Numbered from the stretch's first letter, positions 23,487 to 51,602 are shown. The stretch: 60,918 nucleotides of DNA from Desulfosarcina sp. (GCA_030145105.1 JAQYWF010000001.1:1-60918); one strand, 5' to 3'. Program-made: numbers and translations. Notes: a model not told the origin generated them from the letters alone.

Positions 23487-24284
23487 ATGTATGTAAGTGC
23501 AATAGGTTCCGCCACAGCCGGGGCATGGATATCTTCTGTACCAAGTATTAGGAATAATAAAAGAACGGAAGGTTCATGTATAAACCCTTTCTCTCCCGAT
23601 GGTACCTGCGCCAATCCGCTATTAGATCTCGTTACCTTGTCTTTGGAATCAATGCAATATACCGGCGAGGTGGCCACCCCTTCGTTTTTTTATAATTCAT
23701 TGTATTTCATGTATCCAAACCAATCCATTCGTGATTTTGCTTTGCATGTGATTGGTGTGAAGGCAGCTGATAGCAATGACGAAAAAATAGGTAAGATCGC
23801 CAGGTGGGTTCAAAGACATATACAATATAAGGAAGATATCGAAAATTATGGCTATGATGAATTTTGGGCACCTCCTATATTTACATTAACCAAAAGGTCC
23901 GGTGATTGCGAAGATGGTGCTTTTTTAATCGTTAGCTTGGCGCTCAATTCAGGTGTGCCGGGAAGCCGATTAAGAATGTATGGGGGCGAGGTGAAAGCGG
24001 GTAAAGGCGCTGCAACCGGCGGACACGGATGGGTTGGATATTTACGCGAATCGGATGATGAGTGGATCCCTGTTGATTTTTCCTACTATCCCAATCCGAA
24101 TATTGCTTCTATCAAGCCAATGTCTGAAGATGATCGGTATATTGATGATTTCTTTTTCATGAATGTGTTTGAATTTGTTGAAACGCCGGGAACCAATCGC
24201 GTTCGTGATCCCGAAGGTTATGATAATATGGCAAGGATTAAAAACCAATTGTGGATCGGTCATCTTATCGACAACTTCGTTTAA
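23487..24284 (+). CDS. Transglutaminase-like cysteine peptidase domain protein
   Basis: AGGGGAG RBS. 'W.PP..TL..SGDCEDGA' (Cys), 'GHGWV' (His), 'WIPVD' (Asp). AT-rich. Confidence 0.75.
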   Translation: MYVSAIGSATAGAWISSVPSIRNNKRTEGSCINPFSPDGTCANPLLDLVTLSLESMQYTGEVATPSFFYNSLYFMYPNQSIRDFALHVIGVKAADSNDEKIGKIARWVQRHIQYKEDIENYGYDEFWAPPIFTLTKRSGDCEDGAFLIVSLALNSGVPGSRLRMYGGEVKAGKGAATGGHGWVGYLRESDDEWIPVDFSYYPNPNIASIKPMSEDDRYIDDFFFMNVFEFVETPGTNRVRDPEGYDNMARIKNQLWIGHLIDNFV

Positions 24285-24872
24285 AAATAATAACCCCCCT
24301 CCAGGCCCCTTATAATCCTGAATCGTGTTGCCGCCGTCGATGACGATCATCTGGCCGGTAATGTAAGTGGCTTCATCGGATGCAAGAAAAGCAATCAAGT
24401 CGGCGACCTCCTGCGGTGTCCCGGACCGTCCAATGGGGGTATGCTCCCCCGCCGTTTTCTCTTCTTCGGTGGAAGAGGCCGTCTCGATCCATCCCGGGGC
24501 CACACTGTTGACGGTGATGCCTTCACGGGCCACTTCCATGGCCAGACTGCGGCCCATGCCGACCATGGCTGCCTTGGACGCACTGTACGCTGCCTCTCCC
24601 GGGTTGATCACCAGGGGACCGGTGACCGATGAAATGTTGACGATGCGCCCGTACTTGTTTTTCAGCATGTGGGGCAGCACCGCGTGGGTGACATTGAAGC
24701 AGGTGGTCAGATTGCGGTCGATGGATTTGTGCCACTCCCGCGGCGAAAGCTGCGCCAGGTGAATCATGGCCTCGGGATCGCCCACCTGGGACATGCCGGC
24801 ATTATTGACCAGGATGTCGATGCGGCCAAACTGGCTGATCACATCATCCACCAGGGCGCGGGTCTGATCCAT
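24281..24872 (-). pseudogene. 5'-truncated SDR (3-oxoacyl-ACP reductase-like)
   Basis: Has LVNNAG, YSASK, YITGQ..IDGG but no N-terminal TGxxxGIG. Removing one G from a G6 run gives a natural end KGPGGGYYF* at 24281 instead of running on to 24042. Confidence 0.7.
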
Positions 24873-24959: not shown

Positions 24960-25736
24960 TCACCCCAGTATCAAGCGTTGGGGATCGCACTTGTCTCTTA
25001 AGATGGATAGTTCTTCCGCGGATGGCGGCTTGATCTGTGTGGCCTGCGACGTGTCCACGGCAAAGCCCATGTTGTCGAGAATATCTTCTTTTCTCACGCC
25101 CTGGAAGCATCCATTCAGAACCATCCGCTTGGTTTCCGGATCGAATCCCATGATGGCCATGTTGGTAATCACGCAGGAAGGTCCCCCGTCCGGCAAGCCG
25201 GCCTTTTTTCGGCCGTCAGGCCCGTCGAGCCACCCGGGACTGGTCAGGTAATCCAGTTTGGGAACAAATTTTCGCTTGGCGTGCTGCATGAAGATGATCG
25301 TCCGGCTGACAAAGGATGCCACATCACAGGCACCGCCGCTGCCGGAAAACCGCACCGTCGGATGATGATAGTCGCCGATCACGGTGGAATTCAGGTTGCC
25401 GTATATGTCGATCTGGGCGGCACCCATGATGCCCACCACCTGGCGGCCGGTAAAGCGATTCTGCATGGTGGCGAAGGCATCCGCCAGGCCCCCGTTGACC
25501 GACGTGGCGAACATCACCCTTGGATCGCCCACCGCCAGGGGAACCTCCTCCAGTTGGGAGTCGATGGCGCCGGTTTCGAAAAAGATCACGCTGTTGGGTG
25601 CGCTGATATGCTTGGCCGCCATGGCGGCCAACATGGAAATGCCCGTGCCGCAGAACACGATATCGCCATCGCGGATTTCCCTGGCGGCGGCGACGGCCAT
25701 CATCTCTCGGCTGGTATACTCAATTTCAGTGGACAT
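24960..25736 (-). CDS. gctB: Family I CoA-transferase beta subunit (glutaconate CoA-transferase-like)
   Basis: 'VFCGTG', catalytic 'FETG', 'AAQIDIYGNLNST', 'GSGGACD', 'LTSPG'. Confidence 0.8.
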   Translation of the reverse strand: MSTEIEYTSREMMAVAAAREIRDGDIVFCGTGISMLAAMAAKHISAPNSVIFFETGAIDSQLEEVPLAVGDPRVMFATSVNGGLADAFATMQNRFTGRQVVGIMGAAQIDIYGNLNSTVIGDYHHPTVRFSGSGGACDVASFVSRTIIFMQHAKRKFVPKLDYLTSPGWLDGPDGRKKAGLPDGGPSCVITNMAIMGFDPETKRMVLNGCFQGVRKEDILDNMGFAVDTSQATQIKPPSAEELSILRDKCDPQRLILG

Positions 25737-25836
25737 GGGTCTATTAATCTCCGCGATGGTCGAACGTCGAATGATGAACTCGCTTTGCTCGACCCGTTTG
25801 TAAAAAGTGAGTCTACAGTTGACAGCATGCCAATCC

Positions 25837-25981
25837 AGTGTCGATTCGGAAATGGTAGATTGTGTTCCAGATCAAGGCCGCAGTGTTTTTGAAACCGGAG
25901 GCGTAGCTGGGCTACGTTGAGGATTTCAAAAACACGAGAACGCAGAGCTGGGACGCAAGATACCGTTTCCGGATTGACACT
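25837..25981. repeat. 145-bp palindromic MITE-like element (second family, shared core with 5984-6108)
   Basis: Ends AGTGTCGATTCGGAAATGGTA / TACCGTTTCCGGATTGACACT. Inner GTGTTTTTGAAA/TTTCAAAAACAC. Core AGATCAAGGC...AACGCAGA. Confidence 0.75.
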
Positions 25982-26959
25982 TCAGCGGCGATCCAGCCCT
26001 ACCGCATACCCCGTGCGCGGATCGGCCTTGATTTTCTCCAGCTGACGGTCGTCGATTCGCGCCAGCATCTCTTCATGGTTATGTGATGAGAAGACTTCCT
26101 TTTCCAGATAGGCCTGATATCGGTCATCGTCCAAGGCCGCGTCGCGATATTGGTACAACCGTGTCGGGTCATAGTCGTAATACCGGTAGCAGGCGGTGGG
26201 CCAGGCTCCCATGGGGACATGCACCACGGCATCCACATTAAAAAAGGGAATTTGGTTGCGTTCCGGTGCCCCGCGCAGGAGGTCGTCGTCGACCAGGGTC
26301 TCACAAGTGACGATGAGGTGCCTGGCAGCCTTGGCCTGTTCCACGTCGGCAAAGGGAAGGCCGCTGATGCGGGCGGTTCCCTGTCGGTCGGCTGCCTGTA
26401 CATGAATGATGGTGACATCCGGGTTGATGGCTGGCACCAGCACCACCCGCTCGGTATCGCACCAACCATCGAAGGGGTTGTCCATGACGACCAGTTTGCG
26501 ATCGGGAACACGCGCATTCGCCTGACGCGCCGTTTGCGAAAAACCCCACCGGTTGACGAGGTCTGATCCCAGCGATGAGCGCGTCGGCAGGAACGGTACG
26601 CCCATGGCACCGGCCATGAACCGCAGGGTCATCTGGTAGTTGGAGTAGTCCTCGACCGGCAGTTGCCCGGATTCGACCGCTTTGCGGAAGCGGATGCAGG
26701 TGGACGCGAACCGCCCGCTGCCGGCATAGGCAATCTCGAGCTGGTCCACGCAGCCGGCCCCGATCAGTTCGTCGACCCCCTGGCCGTTGGAGTGGGCGTA
26801 GAGATGCAGGTGGCGTTTTTTCTGGCGGATGATTTCATACACCGCCGCCATGGGATTCCGATTAATGGTAAATCCGCCGATGGAGATGTGGGCGCCGTCG
26901 GAGACGAATCGGGAAACGGCATCCGACAGGGACATCCGTTTGTTGCTGTTTACATTCAT
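25982..26959 (-). CDS. gctA: Family I CoA-transferase alpha subunit (glutaconate CoA-transferase-like)
   Basis: 'GGFTINRNPMAAVYEIIRQ', 'AGAMGVPFLP..S.LGSD', 'PAINPDVTIIHVQAAD'. Confidence 0.8.
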   Translation of the reverse strand: MNVNSNKRMSLSDAVSRFVSDGAHISIGGFTINRNPMAAVYEIIRQKKRHLHLYAHSNGQGVDELIGAGCVDQLEIAYAGSGRFASTCIRFRKAVESGQLPVEDYSNYQMTLRFMAGAMGVPFLPTRSSLGSDLVNRWGFSQTARQANARVPDRKLVVMDNPFDGWCDTERVVLVPAINPDVTIIHVQAADRQGTARISGLPFADVEQAKAARHLIVTCETLVDDDLLRGAPERNQIPFFNVDAVVHVPMGAWPTACYRYYDYDPTRLYQYRDAALDDDRYQAYLEKEVFSSHNHEEMLARIDDRQLEKIKADPRTGYAVGLDRR

Positions 26960-27056
26960 GGGTGATTTTTTCCTGAACTATTCGCTGGGATTGTCAACTT
27001 CGGACTAAGGGCATTGACTGACAAATCTTGCACCGTATTCCTGGTTTTTTTGTTAC

Positions 27057-27138
27057 CCACGGAGTTTGCCGAGACCGCAGAGAAACCTTTTTTGTGCCCC
27101 TTTTCATTTCTCTGCGCCCTCCGCGCGCTCAGCGGTGA
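27057..27138. repeat. GC-rich intergenic hairpin with 9-mer-like arms
   Basis: CGCAGAGAAA (27076-27085) / TTTCTCTGCG (27107-27116) perfect inverted repeat with degenerate outer repeats. Confidence 0.55.
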
Positions 27139-27171
27139 AACCTTAACCGTCATCGATTTAATGCCACCGTA

Positions 27172-28935
27172 TTACTGAGGGTCCGCATCCGGAAGCTGAC
27201 CCGTGTCGAGCCATCCTCTCAGGCGGTAATAGTCGTCAACCAGCTGTCTCAGATCTTCGGTAGCGATGCGGCGCCCGTCAGGCAGGGCCTCGTTCAACAG
27301 CCGCTTGGGCAGCCAGTCGTCCGTGGCACGCAGGCCCTCTCTCAAATTGAAGCGGCGGGCACTGTCGGTAACACGGGCAGCCAGCGCTTGAAGATCCTGC
27401 TTGTGCATGGTTTCACCGGTGGTCAGGGCGATCAAGTCGCCGATCTCTTCCCAGGGGTACAAATCACGATAAAAGCGGCAGACAATCAAGGTGTCGAAAA
27501 GCGTGCAGCGGTCCTCAAAATCGATGAACATGGCGGCTTTGTCTTCAATCTGGTCCGGATCAATGAGACCGCTCAACTCGGGCTTGTAAAAGGTGGTCCG
27601 CAAATGGCAGGCGCCACGGTCGGCCACGGCGTAGGCCAGGCCCATGCCCTTGAGTACGCGGGGATCGTAGCCCGACGGCTCTAGCCCCTTGACATGAACG
27701 GCGATATCTTCCAGGCCCAGTTCTTCGCTGGCCGGACGGATGCCATCGGCCAGCAGTCCGCCCACATCCTGCCGCAGCACAATTTTTTTGAGCAGTGCGG
27801 CGATCTGATCAGGCTGGTTGTAGTCGATTTCCAGATCGATTTTACCCCGTCGCCGGGCTTCAATGGCAAAAGCGGCCAGGTTTCCCGAACTCATGGTGTC
27901 CAACCCCATACGGTCGCACAGATCGTTCAGATAGACGATCTCCTCGATCTGGTCGACCATGCACAGCCCGCCGAAAGCGTAGATGGTTTCATACTCCGGC
28001 CCTTCCAAGGTCAATCCCTGGTGGCGCCCCTGTTGGACACGGACCGATTTGCCACACGCCAGAAAACAGGTCCGGCAGGCCTTGGGTTTTGGCTGGCAGC
28101 GCTGCTGCATGCTCTGGGCATTGATGGCTTCAACATGCTGCACCGATCCCTGCGACCAGTACCGGCTGGGAAATCCCCCGGCCTTGTTGAGAATATCCAC
28201 CATCATGGGTGTACCGTTATTGCGGTAGGCCTGGGTGACGGCGTGATCCTTGTAGAGCGCCAATTTCTCTTTGGCGTAGGCCCTTAAGCCTTCCGGATCG
28301 GCAAAGGGGCGCTTCTGGCTGCCGTGGAAAACGACGGCCTTGATTTTCTTGGAACCCAATACCGCCCCCATCCCCGTGCGCCCGCATACCCGCCATCCGT
28401 CATTTTTGACAACTGCAAAACGGACACAGTTCTCACCGGCCGGGCCAATCACCATAATTCACGGCGACTTGGCAACCACCCGTTTGCGGACGGCCGCCTC
28501 GGTCTCGAAGGTGTCCAGTCCCCACAGGTCATCCGCCTCGTGAAAAAAGACCCCCTGGTCGGAGATCTCCAGCCACAACGGGCGTTCCGAGGCGCCCTTG
28601 ATGACAAAGGCATCGAAGCCGGCCCGGCTCATGGCAATGGCCGCACTGCCGCCGGCATAGGATTCACTGTATAGACCGGTCAGCGGAGACTTGGCGAACA
28701 TGCCATGACGGCACGATCCGTGGATGGCGCTGTCCGATGCCGGGCCAAGGGCCAACACCAGGTGGCTGTCGGGAGAAAAGGGATCGACGCCGGCAGGGTT
28801 GCGATCCAACAGCAGCTGGGTCCCCAGTCCCTTACCGCCCATGCAGGCTCGCAGGAACGCGTCGCTCAGCGCCTCTGTCTGGGAGGATCGGTTGCTCACA
28901 TCGACTGTCAGGGCCTGTTGAAAAAAACCATGCAT
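27172..28935 (-). CDS. aor: Aldehyde:ferredoxin oxidoreductase (W/Mo-pterin), interrupted by one in-frame TGA (28459-28461)
   Basis: The two ORFs share a frame: 'KSPLTG..SES', 'IGPAGEN', 'GRTGMGAVLGSK', 'CRTCFLAC', 'GPEYE', 'CDRMGLD', 'GACHL'. Confidence 0.85.
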
Positions 28936-28972
28936 ATTATAATGTCCTTTGACCTTGATACGAATCCTTAAA

Positions 28973-30280
28973 TCAGGTACGCGAAACCTTTTCTAAACTT
29001 TCCTCGAGTATCGCCAGTCCCCTGTCCAGCTGTTCATCGGTGATGACCAGCGGCATCAGGGTGCGGATGACATTGCCAAAATTACCGCAGGATAGCAATA
29101 CCAGTCCCTTTTCATAGCAGCGGCTGACCAGTGCCTTGGCCTTGTCGGTGGCCGGTTTTTTGGATTCGCGATCCTCCACCAGTTCCATGGCCAGCATGGG
29201 GCCCTTGCCACGCACCTCGCCGATGATCTCATAGCGTTCCTGCATGGTGGAAAAGCGTGCCAGGAGGGTTTCGCCCAGCCGAACCGATTGATCGAGCAGC
29301 TTATCCTCGAACAGAATCTCCAGAACGGCAAGGGCCGCCCGACAGGAAATCGGGTTGCCGCTGTAAGTGCCGCCCAATCCGCCCACGTGGGGTGCGTTCA
29401 TCATGTCGGCGCGACCGATCACGGCCGACAGGGGCATCCCACCGGCAAAGCTCTTGGCCAGGGTGATAATATCGGGGATCACACCCCAATGGTCGATGGC
29501 AAAGAACTTACCGGTTCTGCCGACGCCGCTCTGGACCTCGTCCATGATCAGGGCGATGTCATACTTTTCGCAGATGGCTTTCAGTTTCCGGAAATACTCG
29601 GGTGGCGGGGTAACGAATCCGCCCTCGCCCTGGATGGGTTCGGCGATCACTGCCGCCGTCTGTTCCGCGGCCACATGACTGATAAAAAATTCTTCGAGGT
29701 AGTCGGCACAGGCAGTCCCGCAGGCTGGATAGGTCAAGCCGAAGGGGCAGCGGTAACAATAGGCAAATGGCATGCGGTAGACTTCCGGAGCAAAGGGTCC
29801 GAAGCCGAACTTGTATGGTTTCACCTTACTTGTCAGGGTCATACCCATCAGCGTGCGCCCGTGAAAGGCATTTTCGAAGCAGATGATCCCTGGTCGCTTG
29901 CTGGCGTAGCGGGCCACCTTGACCGCGTTTTCCACCGCTTCGGCGCCGCTGTTGGCAAACATGGTCATTTTGGCAAAATCCCCGGGTGCCAACGCATTGA
30001 GTCGTGCGGCCAGGTCCACGTAGGCCTCGTACATGGCCACATGAAAGCAGGTGTGGATGCATTTTCCGGCCTGATCCTGGATGGCCGCCACCACCTTGGG
30101 ATGACAGTGCCCCACGTTGTTCACACCGATGCCGCCAGCAAAATCGATCAGTTCACGGCCGTCGACATCCACCATGACCGCCCCGTGGGCATCTTTGATA
30201 AAAGCGGTGGTGGTGTTAAAGGGCCCCTGGGGTACGTGCTGGTTACGTTTTTCGAGCAATTCATGGTTGCGGGCTGACAT
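28973..30280 (-). CDS. gabT: 4-aminobutyrate/5-aminovalerate aminotransferase
   Basis: 'DFAGGIGV', 'NSGAEAVENAVK', 'FHGRT', 'EPIQGEGGF', 'DEVQSG', PLP Lys in 'LAKS', 'LGGTYSGNP'. Confidence 0.92.
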   Translation of the reverse strand: MSARNHELLEKRNQHVPQGPFNTTTAFIKDAHGAVMVDVDGRELIDFAGGIGVNNVGHCHPKVVAAIQDQAGKCIHTCFHVAMYEAYVDLAARLNALAPGDFAKMTMFANSGAEAVENAVKVARYASKRPGIICFENAFHGRTLMGMTLTSKVKPYKFGFGPFAPEVYRMPFAYCYRCPFGLTYPACGTACADYLEEFFISHVAAEQTAAVIAEPIQGEGGFVTPPPEYFRKLKAICEKYDIALIMDEVQSGVGRTGKFFAIDHWGVIPDIITLAKSFAGGMPLSAVIGRADMMNAPHVGGLGGTYSGNPISCRAALAVLEILFEDKLLDQSVRLGETLLARFSTMQERYEIIGEVRGKGPMLAMELVEDRESKKPATDKAKALVSRCYEKGLVLLSCGNFGNVIRTLMPLVITDEQLDRGLAILEESLEKVSRT

Positions 30281-30392
30281 ATGGTTGACTCCTTGTTGAA
30301 TGATTGATTAGGGGCACAAAAGGCGTTATTCATAAGGATCAAATACCCTTTTGTTCTTATCTGCGTGCAACATTTTGCTTGCCATCATCATT

Positions 30393-30412
30393 TTAATTGA
30401 ATATGCAGTTAA
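30393..30412. promoter_or_regulatory. Putative TetR (BetI-like) operator 1
   Basis: TTAATTGAATATGCAGTTAA, 16/20 to the palindrome TTAATTGAACGTTCAATTAA, in the gabT/tetR divergent region. Confidence 0.65.
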
Positions 30413-30612
30413 TAATCGTATGCAACACCCCATTGGCATGACAAACCCCAAACGCGTCGGAACTGTTTGAATCATAAAAACAGCACTGCCAATTCAAAAT
30501 ATATACTTTCAGATAATTATTTTGGCAAGCAGAACTAGGACGTCATAACCGTCGACGATCGAAAAAGACCAACCCATACCATCCTGAAAGTCCACAAAGA
30601 ACTGAACCGGTC

Positions 30613-31215
30613 ATGCGAAAAAATAAAAGTGCAGCACTCAGAAAACCGGACATCCTCGAGAGCTATTATCAGGTGCTCATCCAGGAGGGACTCGAAGGCA
30701 CCTCTATCAGCAAAATAGCCAGCCGGATAGGCATTCATCCGAGCCTTATCATCCATTATTTCAAGAACAAAGAGAATATGAAGCTCGAGCTCGTTGATCT
30801 GCTGATAGAAAAATATCAGTCTCCGGCAATGATCAACTTCGACCATATTGAGGATGACGAAGAACACTTCAATGCGATCATGGACGTGCTTTTCTCGTTC
30901 AAATGGAATCGAACCGTGGACCCGGGTGTGCATTTCGGTTTTTATTACCTGAGCTTGAGAAATGAACAGATCTTGGCACGCTTCAGGGTAATGTTCAAAT
31001 GGCTGCGGGACTACCTGTGTGAAAAGCTGATCTATTTCGATGAGAAAGGCATCATCAGCGTCACGGATGCGATCAAGGCTGCCGACTACATCGTTACCCT
31101 GATGGAAGGACTGGAGTTTCACTCCCAGTTTTTAGCAAACGGGAAGCATTTCGATGATTTTGCGCAATCCGCCCAAAAAATCCTGGTCAGCGCATTGAAA
31201 AACGGCGAATTTTGA
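30613..31215 (+). CDS. TetR family regulator (BetI-like)
   Basis: N-terminal HTH 'EGLEGTSISKIASRIGIHPSLIIHYFKNKE'. Confidence 0.9.
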   Translation: MRKNKSAALRKPDILESYYQVLIQEGLEGTSISKIASRIGIHPSLIIHYFKNKENMKLELVDLLIEKYQSPAMINFDHIEDDEEHFNAIMDVLFSFKWNRTVDPGVHFGFYYLSLRNEQILARFRVMFKWLRDYLCEKLIYFDEKGIISVTDAIKAADYIVTLMEGLEFHSQFLANGKHFDDFAQSAQKILVSALKNGEF

Positions 31216-31367
31216 TAGCATGAGCATGATTGGGTTGGCGCGCATTGTTATTCCGTCGGAATGCTTTTAGATAAACGAACCTAAGTGAGTGGCAGGGTCC
31301 CTGCTTAATCCGAGCCGACTATCTTTTTAGGGAGAAAGCATACAAACAGTATCTGTAGAAGAGAAAA

Positions 31368-31387
31368 TTAAACGAACGTTCAATTAA
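31368..31387. promoter_or_regulatory. Putative TetR (BetI-like) operator 2
   Basis: TTAAACGAACGTTCAATTAA, 18/20 to the same palindrome, about 85 bp upstream of the patA-aor start. Confidence 0.7.
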
Positions 31388-31471
31388 TAGTTTTCGAATA
31401 ACCAGTTTATCATTGAGTCACCGAACGCCGACCGTATTCGCGGTCGAACCATTCCAACGAAGGAGCATCGA

Positions 31472-34400
31472 ATGCGAGATTACGACGAGCATTTCAAAAG
31501 CGACTACCAGGGAAGAGACATTCAGTCGGCTTATGCCGAGGCGCGCAAGATGGTGGACACCATCCTGACCCCTCCGGACCAGACCCCCCTCGAGGTCCGC
31601 CAGGACATTGCCAAGAAAACGGTGCGCAATTTCCGGGACCACATCAACAAGGGGTTTCTGGAGTATCGTAAATCCGTCACCGAGGCCGGCAACTTCGCCT
31701 ACACGGAGTGGACCGGTCAGGGATCGGTGCTGGTGGATGCCCTGGGGCGCGAATTCTTGGACATCCTGGGCGGGTTCGGTCTATACTCCTATGGTATCCG
31801 CCACCCCAAAATCGTTGCTGCGGTCAAGGCCCAACTAGACCGATCCCCCCAGTACAGCCAGGAACTGCTCGATCCGCTCCGTGCTGAACTGGGTCATGTG
31901 CTGGCCCTGCTGACACCGGGAAAAATTCAATACGGTTTTTTTGCCAATTCCGGAACCGAGGCGGTGGAAGGGGCCATGAAGCTGGCCAAGCTGTACACCG
32001 GTAAAAAGGGCTTCATCGCCTGCCTCAAGGGGTTCCACGGCAAGACCCTAGGCAGCCTGTCACTCATCGGCAAGAAAGTCTTCCGCGAGCCCCTCATGCC
32101 GCTGCTGGACGGGGTGCAGCATGTGCCCTTCGGGGATGCCGATGCCGTTGAACAGATGCTGGCGGCGGCCAAAGCCGTGGGGCAGGACATCGCCGGCGTG
32201 GTGGTCGAACCGATCCAGGGCGAAGCCGGCGCCATCGTGCCGCCGGACGACTTCTGGCCGCGACTGAGAGAAGTGTGCAACCATTACGGCGTGCTGCTGA
32301 TCGCCGACGAGGTTCAGACCGGTTTCGGTCGCACTGGGAAGATTTTCGGTGTAGATCACTGGGAAGTGACCCCGGACATCATGTGCTTCGGTAAAGCCCT
32401 GGGAGGCGGCGTCGTGCCCATGAGCGCCTTTTTCTCCACCCCTGAAATCTGGTCATGCATGGAACCCAACCCCTTCATGCACACCACCACCACCGGCGGC
32501 AACCCGCTGGCCTGTTCAGCCGCACTGGCGGCCGTCACCGTGCTGATCGAGGAAGACCTGGCCGAGCAGGCCCGCAAGAAAGGCGAGTATGTTCTCAACC
32601 ATCTTGAAACGTTGAAAGCACGCTACCCCGGCGTACTGGCCAAAACCCGCGGACTGGGCTTGTTGCTGGGCATGGAGTTTCCCACGGACGGCATCGGTTA
32701 CAAGGTCGCCTCCGGGCTCTTCTCACGGGGCGTGCTCACCGCCGGAACCCTCACCAACGCCAAGAATATCCGCTTCGAACCGGCCCTGACCATTCCACAA
32801 GATATCCTGGACGAGGTGCTCAACCGTCTCGAGGATGTGTTTAAATCCATCGAGCGGCCCCAACGCGAAAAGGTCAGCAACCTATACGCCGGCCGCATGC
32901 TGCACATCGACCTGTCGTCCGGCAAGGCCACCGCCGAACCCCTCAACGAGGCGTGGGCCCGGGAGTATATCGGCGGCTGGGGACTGGGGGCCAAATACTA
33001 CACCGAATCGGTGGATCCCACAGTGGAACCCCTCTCCGTCGAAAACAATTTCGTAGTCATGACCGGCCCCATGGCCGGGACGCTGGCTCCGACCGGCTCG
33101 CGCACCTGCCTGGTCTCCAAATCGCCCCACACCGGGACGATCTTCGAATCCAACATCGGCGGTGCCTTCGGTCCCGAACTGAAATTTGCCGGCTATGACG
33201 GCATCGTCATCAGCGGCAAGGCCGATAAGCCGGTGTGGCTAAAAATCGAAGACGACGCCGTATCCATAGAGAATGCCGATTCCCTGTGGGGCAAGGGCAT
33301 TTTCGAAACCGAGCAAGCCCTGGAAGAGGAAGTCGGCCTCGGCATGAAAAGCCTGGCCATAGGCCCGGCCGGCGAGAACCTGGTGACCTTTGCCTGCGTC
33401 GGTTCGGAGTCCTACCGGCAGATGGGCCGGGGCGGCGTGGGCACGCTGTTCGGCTGCAAAAATCTCAAAGCCATCGCCGTCAAGGGAACCGGCGGCGTTC
33501 AGGTGGCCGAGATCGGTGAATTCTGGGGTAAGGTGTCCGAGCATCTGGAAGACAACCTGATGACCATCGACAATCAGTGGGCCAAGGATCAGGGCACTCC
33601 CATGCTGGTGGATGTGACCAACGAGATGGGCATCCATCCCACCCGTAACTTCACCAACGGGGTCAACCCCCATCGCCGCAAACTGGACGCCGACGCCGTG
33701 ATGGACATCAAGATCGGCGACCGCGCCTGTGCCACCTGCCCCCTGGGCTGCGGCAACTTCACATCGATCAACGGCGTCCAGGTCGAGGGCCCGGAATACG
33801 AAACCCTTTGCCTGGGCGGATCCAACTGCGAGATCAACGATATGGAGCAGGTCATGCGCTTTAACCGCAAGTGCGACGACCTGGGGCTGGACACCATGTC
33901 CACCGGCAATATCATTGGCTTGGCCATGGCCCTGACCGAGTCCGGCGCTGCCGACCTGGGCCTGACCTTCGGCGATGCCGAGGCTTACCTGCAGGTTCTG
34001 GATGAGATGGCCAACCGCTCCACCGAGCGCGGCCGCGATCTAACCCTGGGCGCCGCCAAACTGGCCGACAAATACGGCCGGCCCGATCAGGCGGCCCACT
34101 CCAAGGGACTGGAAATGCCGGCCTATGACCCGCGAGGCAACTACGGCATGGGCCTGGCCTACGCTACCAGCGAGCGAGGTGCCTGCCATCTGCGTGCCTT
34201 TCCCCTGTTTGCCGACGATCCTTTCAAGCTCAGAGACCTGGCCAAAGAGGTCGTGGCCATGCAAAACACCAACGGGGCCAAATGGTCCATGTGCTTCTGC
34301 GATTTCTGGGGATCGGTTGACACGACCATCATGGCCGACCTGCTTACGAAGGGCTTGGGGCGCCAGTTTTCCGCGAAAGATCTGGACAAGGTCGGCGAGC

Positions 34401-34639
34401 GGGTCTGGAACCTGGTGCGCATGTTCAACCTGGCGGCGGGATTCACCGCGGCGGACGACGTCCTGTCCGAAAAGTTCACCCGACGGGCCCTGGAAAACGG
34501 CCCCCACGAGGGCCGCGTCCTGGCCCCCGAGACGATGGAAGAACTCAAGGGTTTCTACTATCGCCAGCGGGGATGGGATGAAGACGGCCAGCCCAAGGCG
34601 GCCAAGCTTCATCAGCTGGGACTGAGCGACCTGAAATAA
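31472..34639 (+). CDS. patA: Fused putrescine aminotransferase (PatA/YgjG-like) / aldehyde:ferredoxin oxidoreductase
   Basis: AAGGAG RBS. N half: 'GFLEYRKSVT', 'FHGKTLGSLS', 'DEVQTG', 'FGKALGGG', 'HTTTTGGNPLAC'. C half from about 32885: 'YAGRMLHIDLS', 'IGPAGEN', 'CATCPLGC', 'GPEYE', 'CDDLGLD', 'GACHL', 'YYRQRGWD'. Confidence 0.93.
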   Translation: MRDYDEHFKSDYQGRDIQSAYAEARKMVDTILTPPDQTPLEVRQDIAKKTVRNFRDHINKGFLEYRKSVTEAGNFAYTEWTGQGSVLVDALGREFLDILGGFGLYSYGIRHPKIVAAVKAQLDRSPQYSQELLDPLRAELGHVLALLTPGKIQYGFFANSGTEAVEGAMKLAKLYTGKKGFIACLKGFHGKTLGSLSLIGKKVFREPLMPLLDGVQHVPFGDADAVEQMLAAAKAVGQDIAGVVVEPIQGEAGAIVPPDDFWPRLREVCNHYGVLLIADEVQTGFGRTGKIFGVDHWEVTPDIMCFGKALGGGVVPMSAFFSTPEIWSCMEPNPFMHTTTTGGNPLACSAALAAVTVLIEEDLAEQARKKGEYVLNHLETLKARYPGVLAKTRGLGLLLGMEFPTDGIGYKVASGLFSRGVLTAGTLTNAKNIRFEPALTIPQDILDEVLNRLEDVFKSIERPQREKVSNLYAGRMLHIDLSSGKATAEPLNEAWAREYIGGWGLGAKYYTESVDPTVEPLSVENNFVVMTGPMAGTLAPTGSRTCLVSKSPHTGTIFESNIGGAFGPELKFAGYDGIVISGKADKPVWLKIEDDAVSIENADSLWGKGIFETEQALEEEVGLGMKSLAIGPAGENLVTFACVGSESYRQMGRGGVGTLFGCKNLKAIAVKGTGGVQVAEIGEFWGKVSEHLEDNLMTIDNQWAKDQGTPMLVDVTNEMGIHPTRNFTNGVNPHRRKLDADAVMDIKIGDRACATCPLGCGNFTSINGVQVEGPEYETLCLGGSNCEINDMEQVMRFNRKCDDLGLDTMSTGNIIGLAMALTESGAADLGLTFGDAEAYLQVLDEMANRSTERGRDLTLGAAKLADKYGRPDQAAHSKGLEMPAYDPRGNYGMGLAYATSERGACHLRAFPLFADDPFKLRDLAKEVVAMQNTNGAKWSMCFCDFWGSVDTTIMADLLTKGLGRQFSAKDLDKVGERVWNLVRMFNLAAGFTAADDVLSEKFTRRALENGPHEGRVLAPETMEELKGFYYRQRGWDEDGQPKAAKLHQLGLSDLK

Positions 34640-34720
34640 CCAACTTGAACCGATCAATGCAATCAACCGGTAGCCAGCCAAACACTTAAGCGGTCGACCA
34701 CCGGAATAATGGAGGATCCA

Positions 34721-35266
34721 ATGGAAAAACACCTGATGGCCATTCCCAACCGATGTACCGGATGCAATCGATGCGTGTATGCCTGCTCAGCGGTCAAGGA
34801 GGGGATGTTCATACCCTCCAAGGCGCGGGTGCAGGTCAGCAACTTCACCCACGAAGGATACTCGGTGCCCAACGTCTGTTTTCAATGCCCTAAAGCTGCC
34901 TGCATGGAGGCCTGCCCCACCGACGCGATCTTCAAGAGCGACCGCGGCGTTATCGTCGTGGACGCCAAGAAATGCGACGGCTGCGGCAACTGCGTGGACG
35001 CCTGCCCCTATGGCATGATCGAGCAGTACGTTTCCGGCACGGCCTATAAATGCGACCTGTGTGGCGGCGCCCCGGCCTGCGTGGCCGAGTGCCACTATGG
35101 CGCCCTGGTATTCAAGGAAGCCGACAACGTGTTGCTCAAGTGCCGCAAGGAGCAGATGAAGCAACGCCAGAAAGAGGGAGGGTCGGCTGAGAAACGGCGC
35201 GCCCTGGCCGTTGAAGTGCTCAAAGGGGCTGAACGGGTACCCCGCACTGCCGGGTATATGGGCTGA
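34721..35266 (+). CDS. 4Fe-4S polyferredoxin (likely AOR electron-transfer subunit)
   Basis: GGAGG RBS. CTGCNRCVYAC, CFQCPKAACMEACP, CDGCGNCVDACP, KCDLC...CVAEC. Confidence 0.92.
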   Translation: MEKHLMAIPNRCTGCNRCVYACSAVKEGMFIPSKARVQVSNFTHEGYSVPNVCFQCPKAACMEACPTDAIFKSDRGVIVVDAKKCDGCGNCVDACPYGMIEQYVSGTAYKCDLCGGAPACVAECHYGALVFKEADNVLLKCRKEQMKQRQKEGGSAEKRRALAVEVLKGAERVPRTAGYMG

Positions 35267-35317
35267 GAAACGATAGTTCAAAAAAGGGGAGACGGATGTC
35301 CCGGTCAATGGTACGGT

Positions 35318-35465
35318 TCAGAAAACAAAAAAATACCCAAAAACCAAATGACAAATAAATAACAATAGCTAAAATTCCAAACAACTATTGGTTTGGATAA
35401 TGTTGAGAATTGGTTATTGCAATTTGGAATTTATTTGAGATTTGGTGCTTGGAATTTGTTGTTTC
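35318..35465. repeat. AT-rich long hairpin repeat, copy 1
   Basis: CCAAATGACAAATAAAT pairs with ATTTATTTGAGATTTGG. Three blocks are shared with 43774-43975. Confidence 0.75.
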
Positions 35466-35500
35466 AGAATAAGCATAGACAATTCAACTTTCGGGATCGA

Positions 35501-36598
35501 ATGATGCCCCAAACACGCACCAGCACACCATTGGAAGACGGCTACCGCATGCCCGCAGAATTTGAACCCCACCGGGGATGCTGGATGCTGTGGCCCGAGC
35601 GGGGAGATACATGGCGCATGGGCGCAAAACAGGCCCAGGCCGCCTTTGCCGAAGTGGCCGCGGTCATTGCGGCCTTCGAGCCGGTGACGGTCGGCGCCAG
35701 CCGCGGTCAATGGGAAAACGCCCGGGCCATGCTGCCCGATGCGGTCCGGGTGGTGGAGATCTCCTCGGACGATGCCTGGATGCGGGATGTGGGCCCCACC
35801 TTTGTGATCAATGAAGGCCAAGAGACCCGCGGGGTCGACTGGCACTTCAACGCCTGGGGCGGCTTGGAAGGCGGCATCTACTTCCCCTGGTCCCAGGACA
35901 GCATGGTGGCCAGGAAAGTTCTCGAAATCGAAGGCGCCGACCGCTACCGCGCCCCCCTGGTCATGGAGGGCGGTTCTTTTCACGTGGACGGCCAAGGCAC
36001 CTTGATCACCACCGAGGAGTGCCTGCTCAATTCCAACCGCAACCCCCAACTTACCCAGCAGCAGATCGAGGCCTCGCTGAAAACCTACCTGAATATGCAC
36101 AAGGTGGTCTGGCTCGATAAAGGGGTGTACATGGACGAGACCGACGGCCATGTGGACAACCTGTGTTGTTTCGTCAAACCCGGGGAAGTGCTGCTCACCT
36201 GGACCGATGATCCCGACGATCCCCAGTACGAGATATCCAGGCAGGCCCTGGAGAAACTTTCCGCCGCAACGGACGCACGTGGACGGTCGCTGGTTGTCCA
36301 CAAGATCCATCAGCCCGATCCGATGGTGGTCTCCGCAGCGGAATGCGAGGGATTGGACGCCAGCGAGACGGCCAAACCCCGTAAGGCCGGTGACCGGCTG
36401 GCCGCCTCTTACGTCAATTTTTATATCGCCAACGGCGGGATTGTCATGCCGCTTTTAGACGACACCCACGACCGGGCGGCCATGGACCTGCTCGCCCGGC
36501 TCTTTCCGGACCGAAGGGTCGTTGGCGTCAGAAGCCGGGAGATCCTGCTGGGAGGCGGAAACATCCACTGCATCACCCAGCAGATCCCGATGGGTTAA
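35501..36598 (+). CDS. aguA: Agmatine deiminase
   Basis: 'MPAEFEPH...WPER.DTW', 'DAWMRDVGP', 'FNAWGG', 'EGGS', 'ETDGHVDN', '[11 protein letters not shown]'. Confidence 0.95.
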
Positions 36599-36676
36599 TT
36601 CAAGGTCCGATTAAACGCAGATCTCGGGCTTTTCAGAATAGTCAATGTTGATGAGGTCGCATAAAGTCGCATTTTC

Positions 36677-36916
36677 GACGGTTTCGTTAAAAGCCCGATA
36701 TCAAGGTTTGCGAGCCGCGATAGTGAGCGTGATCACCGTCGTTTTTGACGGAATCAGCGAGCGAACTGAAAATCGATCGTCATCCATACGGCGAATCTTC
36801 CCCGCACGGTTTGCCGCGGGGGAGATTCAATCCCGAGGAATGAGGTGTACTTACCGTACTCCGCAGTGACGAGGGATGAAGCGTAACGCAGATATCGTGT
36901 TTTTTACGAAACCGTC
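36677..36916. repeat. MITE/ERIC-like element, copy 2, with a 115-bp nested insert
   Basis: Ends GACGGTTTCGTTAAAAG / TTTTTTACGAAACCGTC. Insert about 36714-36828 relative to copy 1. Confidence 0.85.
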
Positions 36917-36932
36917 AATATTAGAGGAGACC

Positions 36933-37808
36933 ATGGCCACCATCAAAGTGGCGGCAACCCAAATGCCGTGCAGTTCCAAAGTAGAGGAAAACCTTTCAGT
37001 CGCAGAGATGATAGTGCGAACCGCAGCAGGCCAGGGTGCAACAATTATCCTGCTTCAGGAGTTGTTCGAGACCCTGTACTTCTGCCAGGTGGAAAAGCCA
37101 GATTTCTTCTCGCTGGCCACCTCTCTGGAGGATAACCCGGCCGTCAGGCGTTTCTCGACAATCGCGGCAGAACTGCAGGTCGTTTTGCCGATCAGCTTTT
37201 TCGAGAAAAAAGGCCAGTCCTTCTTCAACAGCCTGGCGGTAATCGATGCCGACGGATCCGTTTTGGGAACCTACCGCAAAACCCACATCCCCGATGGCCC
37301 GGGGTACGAAGAGAAATACTACTTCAGCCCGGGCGATACCGGATTCAAAGTCTGGAAAACACGCTACGCCACCATCGGCGTGGGCATCTGCTGGGATCAG
37401 TGGTTTCCAGAAGCCGCCAGATCCATGGCGCTGATGGGCGCTGAGATGCTGCTCTACCCCACGGCCATCGGGTCCGAGCCCCTGAATCTGTCCTATGACA
37501 GCCAGCCCCACTGGCAGACCTGCATGCAGGGTCATGCCGCCGCCAACATCATGCCGGTTGTCGCCTCAAACCGCATCGGCAGTGAAACCATCGACGGGTC
37601 CACCCTGACCTTCTATGGATCATCGTTTATCACGGACAACAAGGGTGCACTGATTGCCCAAAGCGACCGACAGTCCATGGGCGTCATCGTTGCTGAACTG
37701 GACCTGTCGGCCTATTCCGCAGAACGAGCGGCGTGGGGCCTTTTCCGCGACAGGCGACCCGACGCCTATGAGAGGCTGTTAACCCTGGATGGTGACCACC
37801 CGTCATGA
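36933..37808 (+). CDS. aguB: N-carbamoylputrescine amidase
   Basis: GAGGAG RBS. Nitrilase triad 'LQELF', 'YRKTHIPDGPGYEEK', 'ICWDQWFPE', plus 'YPTAIGSEP'. Confidence 0.95.
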   Translation: MATIKVAATQMPCSSKVEENLSVAEMIVRTAAGQGATIILLQELFETLYFCQVEKPDFFSLATSLEDNPAVRRFSTIAAELQVVLPISFFEKKGQSFFNSLAVIDADGSVLGTYRKTHIPDGPGYEEKYYFSPGDTGFKVWKTRYATIGVGICWDQWFPEAARSMALMGAEMLLYPTAIGSEPLNLSYDSQPHWQTCMQGHAAANIMPVVASNRIGSETIDGSTLTFYGSSFITDNKGALIAQSDRQSMGVIVAELDLSAYSAERAAWGLFRDRRPDAYERLLTLDGDHPS

Positions 37809-38257
37809 AAAGGTTGACTGTCCAGCACCTCAGAAATGCAAAAGACCGCCTGCGGCATGCCGTCATCTATGAAATTGTGGGTCTGATCCTGGTCGTGCCG
37901 CTGGCGGCGTTGGGATTTGGTACGGACCTGTTGGACACCGGCGTTCTGGGCATCTTTTTCAGCATCCTGGCCATGGTCTGGAATATGATCTACAATCACT
38001 ATTTCGATATCATGCTCTTGAAAAATGGACGCAACCCCGCTCGGCGGGGCTTTTGGCTTCGAGCCGTCCACGCCCTATTATTTGAAGCGGGATTCATCAT
38101 CGTCAGCGTCCCAGCCATCGCTTGGTGGCTGTCTCTATCCCTGGTAAAAGCATTGGCCATGGACCTGGGGTTTACCCTTTTTTATATCGGGTACACCTAT
38201 GTGTACAATTGGGCCTATGATCGGATTTTCCCCTATCCGGTGCTTAAACCGGAATAA
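37805..38257 (+). CDS. PACE (AceI-like) efflux transporter
   Basis: 'RLRHAVIYE', 'WNMIYNHYFD', 'RAVHALLFEAG', 'YTYVYNWAYD'. Overlaps the aguB stop (ATGA). Confidence 0.9.
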   Translation: MKRLTVQHLRNAKDRLRHAVIYEIVGLILVVPLAALGFGTDLLDTGVLGIFFSILAMVWNMIYNHYFDIMLLKNGRNPARRGFWLRAVHALLFEAGFIIVSVPAIAWWLSLSLVKALAMDLGFTLFYIGYTYVYNWAYDRIFPYPVLKPE

Positions 38258-38528
38258 AGTGGTCCCCGACCCGGCCAGAAAGGCTGGACACCTTAATGCA
38301 ATACCTGGGAAGCGGCATCCTCGTGGCCCACAATGCCGCGTTCGATCTGCATCTTCTGAACCGTCTGATGAGGGAGCACCAAGGATTCGCGCTACAGAAT
38401 CTGGTCATCGACACCCCATTTTATTTCCCTCTGCTGGCCCGCTATTCGTTCCCATTGACAGTTCATTGAAAAAACTCATACTATTGAACCGTGACAACTT
38501 ACCAACTCATTTCTTGCGAATTGTAGCC

Positions 38529-42687: not shown

Positions 42688-43734
42688 TCAATGGGACTTG
42701 GCGCGCGTCCAGGCTTCATCCATAATCCGGTTGTCCTTGCCCAGATCCTTGGTGAAGTGAAGTTTTTTCATGATCGCGGGTGTCGGGTAAATTCCCGGAT
42801 TTTCCAGATCTTCAGGCGTGATGAACGCCTCGGCCGCCGCATTGGGGGTCGCATACTGGTTGTAGTTGGACAGCTCGGCACCGACTTCGGGCTCCAGCAG
42901 CCAGTTGATCCACTTGTGTGCGGCGTCCGGGTTGGGCGCTTTGCTGGGGATACACATGGAATCATACCAGATTTCACTGCCCTCGCTGGGGATGATGAAA
43001 CCCAGCTTGTCCGGCTCTTCGGTGACCGACTGAATGGCATCCCCGTTATAAACGATGGCCGCCACCGCCGTACCGGCGACCACATCGTTCTTGCCACCCA
43101 CGCCTGGCTTGAAGCCCATGCAGTTTTTCGACCGCTTGGCGGCCACCAGCAAGTCGGCAGCGGCTTTGAGATCCGCGGGCTTGGTACTGTTAAAATCCTT
43201 GCCCTGGTAAACCAGGGCGATGCCCATCATCTCGCGCACGGAATCGATCAGCCAGAATGCACCGGGCTGTTTTTTGGCATCGAACAACACCGACCAGGAC
43301 TGAGCGGCGGCGTCACTGACCTTGTCCTTGCGATACATCAGCCCCACCGTGCCCCACTGATAGGCGACGGAGTATTTGTTGCCCGGGTCATAGCTGGCTT
43401 CCCGGAAAAGGGGTTTGAGGTTCTTCAGGTTGGGAAGTTTGGCGTGATCCAGCGGCTGGACCAGCCGCTGGTTGATCAACACCGGCATGATGTAATCGGA
43501 AGGCACGATGATGTCATACTGACTGGCCCCGCCGGCCTGCAGTTTGGCCACCATCTCCTCGTTGTTCTCGTAGATGTCCAGACGGACCTTGATGCCGAAC
43601 TTCTCTTCAAAATCAGCCGGCATCTTTTCCTCGTCCATATACTCCGACCATGTGTAGACCCTCAATTCTTCGGCACTGGCCGCCATCCCGCCAAAAAGCA
43701 CCAATACCAACACAAGCAGGCTACATTTTCGCAT
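42688..43734 (-). CDS. potD: Polyamine ABC transporter substrate-binding protein
   Basis: Signal peptide, 'YTWSEY', 'YDIIVPSDY', 'YQWGTVG', 'PSEGSEIWYD'. Confidence 0.92.
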   Translation of the reverse strand: MRKCSLLVLVLVLFGGMAASAEELRVYTWSEYMDEEKMPADFEEKFGIKVRLDIYENNEEMVAKLQAGGASQYDIIVPSDYIMPVLINQRLVQPLDHAKLPNLKNLKPLFREASYDPGNKYSVAYQWGTVGLMYRKDKVSDAAAQSWSVLFDAKKQPGAFWLIDSVREMMGIALVYQGKDFNSTKPADLKAAADLLVAAKRSKNCMGFKPGVGGKNDVVAGTAVAAIVYNGDAIQSVTEEPDKLGFIIPSEGSEIWYDSMCIPSKAPNPDAAHKWINWLLEPEVGAELSNYNQYATPNAAAEAFITPEDLENPGIYPTPAIMKKLHFTKDLGKDNRIMDEAWTRAKSH

Positions 43735-43773
43735 CCTATCTCTCCTTTAGGGTTCCGGGTTTTTAGTTCCAAT

Positions 43774-43975
43774 TTCAGAAAACAACAATAGCCAAATGAC
43801 AAATAAATCACAATTGCCAATTTCAAAATTCCAAACCTGACGGTCTTGAAGGAAGGACATTCCAACCATCAATATTTGAGAAACCAATATAATAACAAAT
43901 AGTTTTTTTTACCCCGTTTGAGATATGGATATTGTAGTTTGGAATTTATTTGAGATTTACTATTTGTTGTTTGTG
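43774..43975. repeat. AT-rich long hairpin repeat, copy 2
   Basis: Shares CCAAATGACAAATAAAT, AAAATTCCAAAC and TTTGGAATTTATTTGAGATTT with 35318-35465. Confidence 0.75.
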
Positions 43976-44035
43976 ACTTATCAGTGCTTTGGATCACCGG
44001 TTCAGGTTTACAATGCCTCCATAACCCTGAATCTC

Positions 44036-46798: not shown

Positions 46799-46938
46799 AT
46801 CCTCGGAGATCCGGAAGCGTGATCCAAACAAAGCGTTAACAACAAAAGGCTGGCAATAAGCCTGCAATTGAAATCGGTTCGGGTCGAACAGTGAGAATAG
46901 AAACGACGCTTAAACCCAGACAACCGTCTGGCTGCGGT

Positions 46939-51592: not shown

Positions 51593-51602
51593 TGGTAGTG
51601 AT

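What the first reader, a model, noticed from the sequence alone, without database searches (positions are those of the whole stretch)
24960..38257. Complete anaerobic polyamine catabolic locus using aminotransferase + AOR modules twice
Seen: divergent arms around a TetR gene. Rightward: patA-aor, ferredoxin, aguA, aguB, PACE. Leftward: gabT, second aor, CoA-transferase alpha/beta. No NAD-dependent aldehyde dehydrogenase is in the window. Inferred route: agmatine -> N-carbamoylputrescine -> putrescine -> 4-aminobutanal -> GABA -> succinate semialdehyde -> succinate -> CoA ester, with AORs replacing PatD and GabD and producing low-potential electrons. This is the best candidate for an undescribed system here.
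Basis: partly seen in the sequence, partly recalled or inferred. Interest (0 to 1): 0.9.

Follow-up and report, generated by a model that had tools for sequence, protein, structure and literature searches.

The report
Transaminase–tungsten enzyme fusion for diamine breakdown
Sediment sulfate-reducing bacteria carry a conserved gene cluster in which a diamine transaminase is fused into one protein with a tungsten-type aldehyde oxidoreductase, and it likely breaks down putrescine and cadaverine without oxygen, which would give several unassigned tungsten enzymes a testable natural substrate.

Summary
All listed genes are present. patA-aor is one real 1055-aa protein (putrescine transaminase plus tungsten-type AOR). 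Its catalytic residues are invariant in 109 of 109 aligned homologues, and only one 50%-identity cluster among 1.84 billion matches it end to end. Databases call it only 'putrescine aminotransferase'. In 72 related loci the parts are swapped for functional equivalents: agmatinase for aguAB, a different AOR lineage, once a true aminobutyraldehyde dehydrogenase. This supports AOR doing the PatD/GabD job.

Corrections: aor2 has a nonsense codon in this assembly (Gly in three other runs; not Sec). The 'ferredoxin' is a four-cluster WorS subunit. The genome has a GabD-type enzyme elsewhere. The CoA-transferase is glutaconate/glutarate-type and often lies beside glutaryl-CoA dehydrogenase, so it likely activates glutarate from cadaverine rather than succinate. 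The full two-arm locus is restricted (9 of 72 loci); the fusion plus WorS is the core.

No description was found in the papers searched. Earlier scan notes saw unfused transaminase+AOR clusters on other DNA. Function is untested.

The parts
24042..24872 (-). SDR remnant; about 390 bp including the N-terminal NAD-binding part is missing relative to relatives
   Evidence: junction bridged in runs X8 and X11
24960..25736 (-). GctB-like CoA-transferase beta subunit, Glu54 aligned with the Glu of GctB
   Evidence: (1POI_B, E 9.5e-66)
25982..26959 (-). GctA-like CoA-transferase alpha subunit
   Evidence: 1POI_A, E 2.6e-66
27172..28935 (-). aor2, WOR large subunit; in-frame TGA at 28459-28461 in this assembly, Gly codon in other runs
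28973..30280 (-). GabT-type 4-aminobutyrate/5-aminovalerate transaminase
   Evidence: (TIGR00700 over cut-off)
30393..30412 (.). conserved imperfect palindrome between gabT and tetR, likely TetR operator
30613..31215 (+). TetR-family regulator (BetI-like, below cut-off)
   Evidence: in 47 of 72 loci
31368..31387 (.). second palindrome, upstream of patA-aor1, likely TetR operator
31472..34639 (+). PatA-AOR1 fusion, 1055 aa: putrescine transaminase (about 1-460), short linker, WOR large subunit (about 470-1055)
34709..35266 (+). WorS-type Fe-S subunit with 16 Cys in four groups
   Evidence: follows the fusion in 52 of 55 loci
35393..36598 (+). agmatine deiminase AguA (real start probably near 35501)
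36876..37808 (+). N-carbamoylputrescine amidase AguB (real start probably 36933)
37805..38257 (+). PACE-family transporter (accessory: 5 of 72 loci)
42688..46867 (-). potABCD-type polyamine ABC importer; directly behind worS in many relatives
   Evidence: 24-30 of 72 loci per subunit
47334..48647 (-). carboxyspermidine/saccharopine-dehydrogenase-like gene heading the pot operon
   Evidence: in 5 of 72 loci
48949..49431 (+). Lrp/AsnC regulator divergent from the pot operon

Best explanation
This is a conserved gene cluster of Desulfobacterales built around a single-chain PatA-AOR fusion, and it likely oxidises both putrescine and cadaverine without oxygen using tungsten-type aldehyde oxidoreductases in place of NAD-dependent dehydrogenases. 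Steps, all inferred unless marked shown: PotABCD imports agmatine and diamines. AguA and AguB (agmatinase in other lineages) make putrescine. The PLP domain of the fusion transaminates putrescine or cadaverine with 2-oxoglutarate to 4-aminobutanal or 5-aminopentanal. The tethered AOR1 domain oxidises this to GABA or 5-aminovalerate and passes low-potential electrons through WorS to ferredoxin. GabT and AOR2 repeat the two steps at the other end, giving succinate or glutarate. Succinate enters central metabolism without activation. The GctAB-type transferase activates glutarate to glutaryl-CoA for glutaryl-CoA dehydrogenase (Acd) and glutaconyl-CoA decarboxylase. TetR likely controls both arms through two palindromes. 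Shown: gene identities, the fusion, intact catalytic residues, purifying selection, co-conservation and the swaps. Not shown: any activity, the metal, induction, or channelling.
For: Fusion real and selected: all 120 listed hits carry the three Pfam domains at 70-91% identity. PLP Lys308, Asp279, the four Fe-S Cys and Thr709/Glu777/Tyr885/His906 are invariant in 109 of 109 aligned sequences, and the D455-G474 span is 20-21 aa. dN/dS is 0.05-0.07 (PatA half) and 0.10-0.12 (AOR half) against 7 relatives. PatA is in frame with AOR1 in all 55 of 72 loci that carry AOR1. Swaps: aguA/aguB in 25 loci and agmatinase in 13, never together. Unfused PatA is typically followed by a third AOR lineage (AOR3, in 16 of 72 loci, ~30% identical to AOR1/2, own starred clade). 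In L069 the same TetR-PatA context has an aminobutyraldehyde dehydrogenase over cut-off and no AOR. ALDHs occur in only 3 of 72 loci. AOR2 lies with gabT in 17 of 18 loci. C5 branch: best solved match of both subunits is glutaconate CoA-transferase, whose listed acceptors include glutarate (PMC8085960, passages). The close clade lies within 10 kb of Acd in 15 of 68 genomes. L058 has Acd, a succinate-glutarate CoA-transferase-like gene, a Na+-decarboxylase beta subunit and GcdA around TetR-PatA-AOR3-aguAB; L059 has GcdA. 5 of 5 close relatives have two Acd copies, and this genome has an Acd fragment at a contig edge, 95.8% identical. E. coli PatA/D and GabT/D use C4 and C5 substrates alike (PMC6265302, passages). 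Palindrome at <=4 mismatches in 43 of 47 TetR loci, 1 of 19 loci without TetR, 20 of 300 random windows. A TupA/TupB-like transporter is in the genome (TTTS motif recalled).
Against: No biochemical or expression data. The left arm is not universal: gabT 24, AOR2 18 and CoA-transferase 13 of 72 loci; only 9 of 42 loci with >=7 kb upstream have gabT+AOR2+CoA-T. Only 13 of 27 PatA-positive genomes hold the close CoA-transferase, against 82 of 250 overall. Acd is common anyway (162 of 251), so its presence says little. No GcdA hit in this 87%-complete assembly. A GabD-type enzyme exists on contig C20, so AOR2 may be dispensable; here it carries a nonsense codon. AOR1 has an invariant Trp938 where P. 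furiosus AOR has Asp489, of unknown effect. aguAB point to C4 input, so C5 input relies on imported cadaverine. Two genomes keep a fusion-type PatA with no AOR match in the region fetched (L160, L161). Related genomes are not independent samples.
Confidence: 0.6

Rival explanations
1. One reading: agmatine to putrescine to GABA to succinate, with the CoA-transferase making succinyl-CoA; cadaverine and glutarate play no part.
For: aguAB or agmatinase, which yield putrescine, are in 38 of 72 loci. PatA and GabT pass the putrescine and GABA family cut-offs.
Against: The transferase is GctAB-like and linked to Acd/Gcd. Succinate is not among the acceptors listed for EC 2.8.3.12 in the passage seen. 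Succinate needs no activation for oxidation (own knowledge).
Confidence: 0.16
2. The cluster serves nitrogen scavenging or polyamine detoxification. Amino groups are harvested, AOR removes the toxic aminoaldehyde, and the acids or excess diamines are exported rather than used for energy.
For: A PACE exporter ends the operon; AceI is induced by and exports short diamines (PMC8458285, passages). Most characterised WORs are assigned to aldehyde detoxification (PMC13328260, Table 2). The left arm is often absent.
Against: PACE is in only 5 of 72 loci, while high-affinity importers are in 24-30. A CoA-transferase and Acd/Gcd linkage make sense only for carbon use.
Confidence: 0.13
3. AOR1 and AOR2 are broad-range aldehyde enzymes, or act on other amines' aldehydes (choline/betaine type, in line with a BetI-like regulator); their position next to the transaminases is incidental.
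For: TetR's best NCBIfam hits are BetI, below cut-off, and the palindrome resembles the BetI box (recalled). Methylamine methyltransferase-like genes lie near L033 and L059. The genome has 11 AFOR_N matches.
Against: Covalent fusion with a fixed short linker; three separate AOR clades sit beside PatA/GabT; one locus has a PatD-type enzyme in that slot.
Confidence: 0.07
4. The locus is decaying in this lineage and no longer works as a pathway.
For: Nonsense codon in aor2, truncated SDR, IS5 remnant at 38199-39326.
Against: The stop is absent in 3 of 3 covering runs; dN/dS 0.05-0.12 for the fusion; all other ORFs intact.
Confidence: 0.04

Closest known systems
E. coli PatA/PatD + GabT/GabD route for putrescine and cadaverine (PMC6265302, passages)
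   Same: Same two-round logic (transaminate, oxidise); PatA and GabT homologues over NCBIfam cut-offs; C4/C5 promiscuity expected.
   Different: NAD(P)-dependent PatD and GabD are replaced by WOR-family enzymes; the first is fused to PatA; glutarate likely goes by CoA activation and Acd/Gcd, not O2-dependent CsiD/LhgO.
Pseudomonas aguA/aguB agmatine pathway (recalled; family models TIGR03380, TIGR03381)
   Same: AguA and AguB over cut-off.
   Different: Coupled to PatA-AOR rather than to gamma-glutamylation or SpuC/KauB.
Class II tungsten oxidoreductases, WorL + WorS (PMC13328260; part 1 of 7 read, main text and 3 supplement files term-searched)
   Same: WorL with Thr243/Glu313/Tyr427/His448 equivalents and four Fe-S Cys; adjacent WorS.
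   Different: N-terminal PLP transaminase domain; none of the five classes includes it, and the main text has no occurrence of aminotransferase, transaminase or putrescine.
Glutaconate CoA-transferase GctAB of Acidaminococcus fermentans (PDB 1POI) and anaerobic glutarate degradation (PMC8085960, passages)
   Same: Two subunits, best PDB match, Glu54 aligned; homologues lie beside Acd and GcdA.
   Different: Sits downstream of gabT-aor2 in a diamine cluster; substrate untested.
Fermentative putrescine and cadaverine degradation in Firmicutes (Schink laboratory; recalled, paper look-ups failed)
   Same: Anaerobic route via omega-aminoaldehyde, omega-amino acid, semialdehyde and, for cadaverine, glutarate (recalled).
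   Different: Described from cell-extract activities with, as recalled, pyridine-nucleotide dehydrogenases; I recall no AOR, fusion or sulfate reducer there.

Membership tests
Putrescine:2-oxoglutarate transaminase PatA/YgjG | Family model over cut-off | tested here: inconclusive
   PRK11522 640.6 > 612, but TIGR03372 493.4 < 658.65; best PDB match YgjG 4UOX, E 2.5e-137
Putrescine:2-oxoglutarate transaminase PatA/YgjG | PLP lysine and active-site residues conserved | tested here: met
   K308, D279, Q282, E251, F188, T340, Q127, F335, L427, R434 invariant in 109 of 109; roles in YgjG recalled
Putrescine:2-oxoglutarate transaminase PatA/YgjG | Activity on putrescine/cadaverine | not testable with these tools
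   needs assay
WOR/AOR family large subunit | AFOR_N + AFOR_C, four Fe-S Cys, Thr243/Glu313/Tyr427/His448 equivalents | tested here: met
   AOR1. AOR2: (120-121 of 121 rows)
WOR/AOR family large subunit | Acidic residue at P. furiosus Asp489 (pterin motif; role recalled) | tested here: not met
   AOR1 has invariant Trp938; AOR2 keeps Asp481
WOR/AOR family large subunit | Tungsten (not molybdenum) cofactor | not testable with these tools
   only indirect: TupA/TupB-like genes in the genome
WOR Class II (WorL + WorS) | Small Fe-S subunit gene adjacent | tested here: met
   52 of 55 fusion loci; 16 Cys in four groups
WOR Class II (WorL + WorS) | Composition limited to WorL + WorS | tested here: not met
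   WorL carries a 460-aa transaminase domain
E. coli PatA/PatD/GabT/GabD pathway | NAD(P)-dependent aldehyde dehydrogenases in the cluster | tested here: not met
   none in the window; 3 of 72 loci; GabD-type gene elsewhere in the genome, no PatD over cut-off among 5 of 6 ALDH matches scanned
GabT | TIGR00700 over cut-off | tested here: met
   538.8 > 506.65; other GabT equivalogs below cut-off
Agmatine deiminase pathway AguA/AguB | TIGR03380 and TIGR03381 over cut-off | tested here: met
Glutaconate/glutarate CoA-transferase GctAB | Alpha/beta pair closest to GctA/GctB with catalytic Glu | tested here: met
   catalytic role of Glu54 recalled
Glutaconate/glutarate CoA-transferase GctAB | Acceptor specificity for C5 dicarboxylates | not testable with these tools
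   context only
Selenoprotein (aor2 TGA read as Sec) | Cys or TGA at the site in homologues; SECIS | tested here: not met
   Gly/Ala/Thr in 120 of 120; Gly codon in 3 runs; no notable hairpin, z -0.9 to 0.35, although selA and selB are present
BetI repressor | Family model over cut-off | tested here: not met
   54 vs 118 and 50.6 vs 201.3
PACE transporter | NF033664 over cut-off | tested here: met
   141 > 80; AceI equivalog not reached, 101 < 180

The most novel reading that the evidence does not exclude
The 1055-aa protein is a bifunctional PLP/tungsten enzyme that turns a diamine into its omega-amino acid in one chain. It hands the aminoaldehyde from the PLP site to the tungsten site before it cyclises to pyrroline or piperideine, and feeds low-potential electrons to WorS. 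With AOR2 and the glutarate transferase it lets marine sulfate reducers, including a gutless-worm symbiont, respire putrescine and cadaverine completely, and it defines dedicated omega-aminoaldehyde and semialdehyde substrates for three separate WOR clades.
Probability: 0.3. Interest if true: 0.82.

Novelty: new variant of a known kind. Interest (0 to 1): 0.66.

Why it matters
A 2026 classification states that only five of 92 WOR clades contain an enzyme with a defined physiological role (PMC13328260, abstract). This cluster proposes specific substrates for three AOR lineages and adds an architecture that classification does not list: a WOR fused to a PLP enzyme. It predicts that sediment Desulfobacterales, and the Olavius Delta 1 symbiont (L026, P0400), use decay-derived diamines as tungsten-dependent electron donors and gain reduced ferredoxin at steps where aerobes gain NAD(P)H. 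Public annotation hides the fusion by calling the 1054-1058-aa proteins 'putrescine aminotransferase'. A one-chain diamine-to-omega-amino-acid catalyst would also be of biocatalytic interest.

Tried and rejected
Selenocysteine in aor2: rejected. Fusion as assembly artefact: rejected. A second gabT-AOR2 fusion family: only one partial protein (P0191) among the 120 listed long relatives, so not a family. Unfused AOR1 as ancestral state: the standalone AOR1 of L162 nests inside the fused clade (quick tree, local support 93-94, not starred) and begins at the linker Met, so fission is more likely; no topology test was run. Reductive 4-hydroxybutyrate route: no HpaB/AbfD-family match in this 87%-complete genome, weak evidence. 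AlphaFold model of the fusion: pLDDT 68.6, pTM 0.61, transaminase half poor; it says nothing on domain packing, and the fold search returned only separate AOR and YgjG matches. RNA runs: near-identical contigs from metatranscriptome libraries cover pieces of both arms, but DNA carry-over is not excluded and contigs give no level, so this was not used as evidence. Phylum sample: only 3 of 400 other genomes had a close PatA at E<=1e-150, with 4 candidates scored per genome; 0 of 7 sampled genomes of the window's own GTDB family had it. One search covered a wrong family accession and is irrelevant. Literature: searches returned 0 papers; some searches returned listings with no description of the fusion or of AOR-linked diamine catabolism. 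PMC12096430 (term search) has no occurrence of aminotransferase, transaminase or fusion; PMC7320173 passages were uninformative. The large Supplementary Dataset 1 of PMC13328260 was probably not among the 46,045 characters held and may list these proteins. Subscription journals were not searched.


Full report
Observation. The window is contig C21 of an 87%-complete genome. Its closest relatives for this locus are titled Desulfosarcina sp. or uncultured deltaproteobacteria, and near-identical DNA occurs in marine-sediment and salt-marsh runs. No aldehyde dehydrogenase is detectable in the window.

The fusion. patA-aor is a single 1055-aa reading frame with a class III transaminase domain and a complete WOR large subunit. 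It is not an artefact. Contigs from 4 of 4 runs bridge the junction. All 120 listed homologues have the same three Pfam domains. All 55 of 72 related loci that carry AOR1 have it in frame with PatA. In an order-level sample, 16 of 250 other genomes carry it in an open frame of about 1000 aa or more. PLP, Fe-S and tungsten-site residues are invariant in 109 of 109 sequences, the linker span is 20-21 residues, and both halves are under purifying selection. Among 1.84 billion 50%-identity representatives, only one cluster matches the whole profile in the best 150 listed, so it is likely a single invention. It is concentrated in Desulfobacterales: only 3 of 400 other genomes in a phylum-wide sample had a close PatA. 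Databases name it 'putrescine aminotransferase'. One oddity is an invariant Trp938 where P. furiosus AOR has Asp489. The downstream 'ferredoxin' has 16 Cys in four groups and follows the fusion in 52 of 55 loci; it is a WorS-type subunit.

aor2. It is interrupted by an in-frame TGA. The genome has selA and selB, but homologues have Gly (107), Ala (12) or Thr (1) of 120, and 3 of 3 covering runs read the Gly codon. This is a strain-level nonsense change or an assembly error. AOR2's catalytic residues are conserved in 120-121 of 121 rows. The SDR behind the CoA-transferase is truncated, also in other runs.

Does AOR do the job of PatD and GabD? The best evidence is interchange of parts across 72 loci (selected by similarity to the fusion). 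aguA/aguB (25 loci) and agmatinase (13; TIGR01230 over cut-off) never occur together. Where PatA is unfused it is usually followed by a third AOR lineage (16 loci carry it). AOR1, AOR2 and AOR3 are only 29-33% identical and form three starred clades in a quick tree. AOR2 accompanies gabT in 17 of 18 loci. Only 3 loci contain an ALDH, and in L069 an aminobutyraldehyde dehydrogenase over cut-off sits behind TetR-PatA with no AOR. Polyamine ABC importers are in 24-30 loci. A palindrome occurs upstream of tetR or patA in 43 of 47 TetR loci, 1 of 19 TetR-less loci with usable upstream sequence, and 20 of 300 random windows. The window has one copy before each arm, which suggests joint regulation. 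Against a strict replacement, the genome has a GabD-type SSADH elsewhere, and two genomes keep a fusion-type PatA with no AOR in the region fetched.

The CoA-transferase. Both subunits are closest to glutaconate CoA-transferase. A review passage says this enzyme type activates glutarate in anaerobic glutarate degradation and lists glutarate, not succinate, among its reactions (PMC8085960). Close homologues occur in 82 of 250 genomes; of the 68 with a listed Acd position, 15 have Acd within 10 kb, and 2 of 20 fetched loci also hold GcdA. L058 places Acd, a succinate-glutarate CoA-transferase-like gene (below cut-off) and a Na+-pumping decarboxylase with GcdA around TetR-PatA-AOR3-aguAB. Five of 5 close relatives have Acd, and this genome has an Acd fragment at a contig edge but no GcdA hit. 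E. coli PatA/D and GabT/D turn over C5 substrates as well as C4 (PMC6265302). I therefore read the left arm as serving GABA and 5-aminovalerate, with the transferase there for glutarate. The link is partial: only 13 of 27 PatA-positive genomes hold this transferase, and the complete two-arm set is in 9 of 72 loci.

Mechanism (inferred). Agmatine gives putrescine through AguA and AguB; cadaverine is imported. The fusion transaminates the diamine and oxidises the aminoaldehyde, passing electrons via WorS to ferredoxin. GabT and AOR2 repeat this to give succinate or glutarate. Glutarate is activated and goes through Acd and Gcd to crotonyl-CoA. PatA products cyclise (piperideine was detected from cadaverine), which offers a reason for tethering the oxidase.

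Comparison and novelty. The pathway logic is that of E. coli PatA/PatD/GabT/GabD, and anaerobic diamine fermentation is known at the enzyme-activity level in Firmicutes (recalled; not retrievable). The ferredoxin-type oxidases and the fusion were not found in print: searches gave no papers, and other searches gave nothing relevant. The 2026 WOR classification (part 1 read, rest term-searched) does not mention transaminases, nor does a 2025 review (term search). Earlier notes of this scan describe unfused transaminase+AOR clusters in Chloroflexota and a GabT+AOR pair in other anaerobes; these are unchecked AI notes and not counted as support. None mentions a fusion (one search found no note with those words).

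Verdict. Real, conserved and probably functional. It is a new variant of a known pathway, with an apparently undescribed PLP/WOR fusion enzyme as its core. Interest 0.66.

Noticed in passing
window 36712-36918: Interspersed repeat between aguA and aguB with 139 blastn hits on 102 contigs of the own genome and very high summed depth in DNA and RNA runs; similar high-depth pieces near 35330-35465 and 25800-25950. Looks like a REP/MITE-type element.
   Followed up: partly
window 47334-48647: Carboxyspermidine/saccharopine-dehydrogenase-like gene at the head of potABCD; homologues lie in PatA loci (L009, L024, L025, L041, L043, L172, L173) and are fused to a GabT-like domain in P0242. Candidate spermidine-cleaving enzyme.
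   Followed up: partly
G000:C275:4806-4879: tRNA-Pyl in the own genome; selA and selB also present, tRNA-Sec not found over cut-off.
   Followed up: no
L001, L002, L004, L007, between CoA-transferase beta and SDR: An extra PRK07046-type class III transaminase in the left arm of four relatives, absent from the window.
   Followed up: partly
L017:6825-8888 (also L001, L004, L015, L016): Sigma-54 activator (best hit PrdR, below cut-off) inserted between gabT and tetR in five relatives.
   Followed up: no
P0473, P0515: AOR large subunits fused to OMP-decarboxylase/hexulose-phosphate-synthase-like domains, a possible formaldehyde-handling fusion.
   Followed up: no
P0247, P0250, P0595: Rare fusions of class III transaminase with NAD-type aldehyde dehydrogenase domains, the NAD-dependent analogue of the fusion here.
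   Followed up: no
window 38199-39326: IS5-family transposase remnant run into an unrelated C-terminal piece; it separates the agu genes from the pot operon together with rhlE, an SDR and a rhodanese.
   Followed up: no
window 50515-57264: Several genes appear split into two overlapping ORFs (peptidase M50/CBS, outer-membrane efflux protein, AcrB), suggesting frameshifts or assembly errors in this contig.
   Followed up: no
L026: The Olavius sp. associated Delta 1 symbiont carries the fusion and WorS.
   Followed up: no
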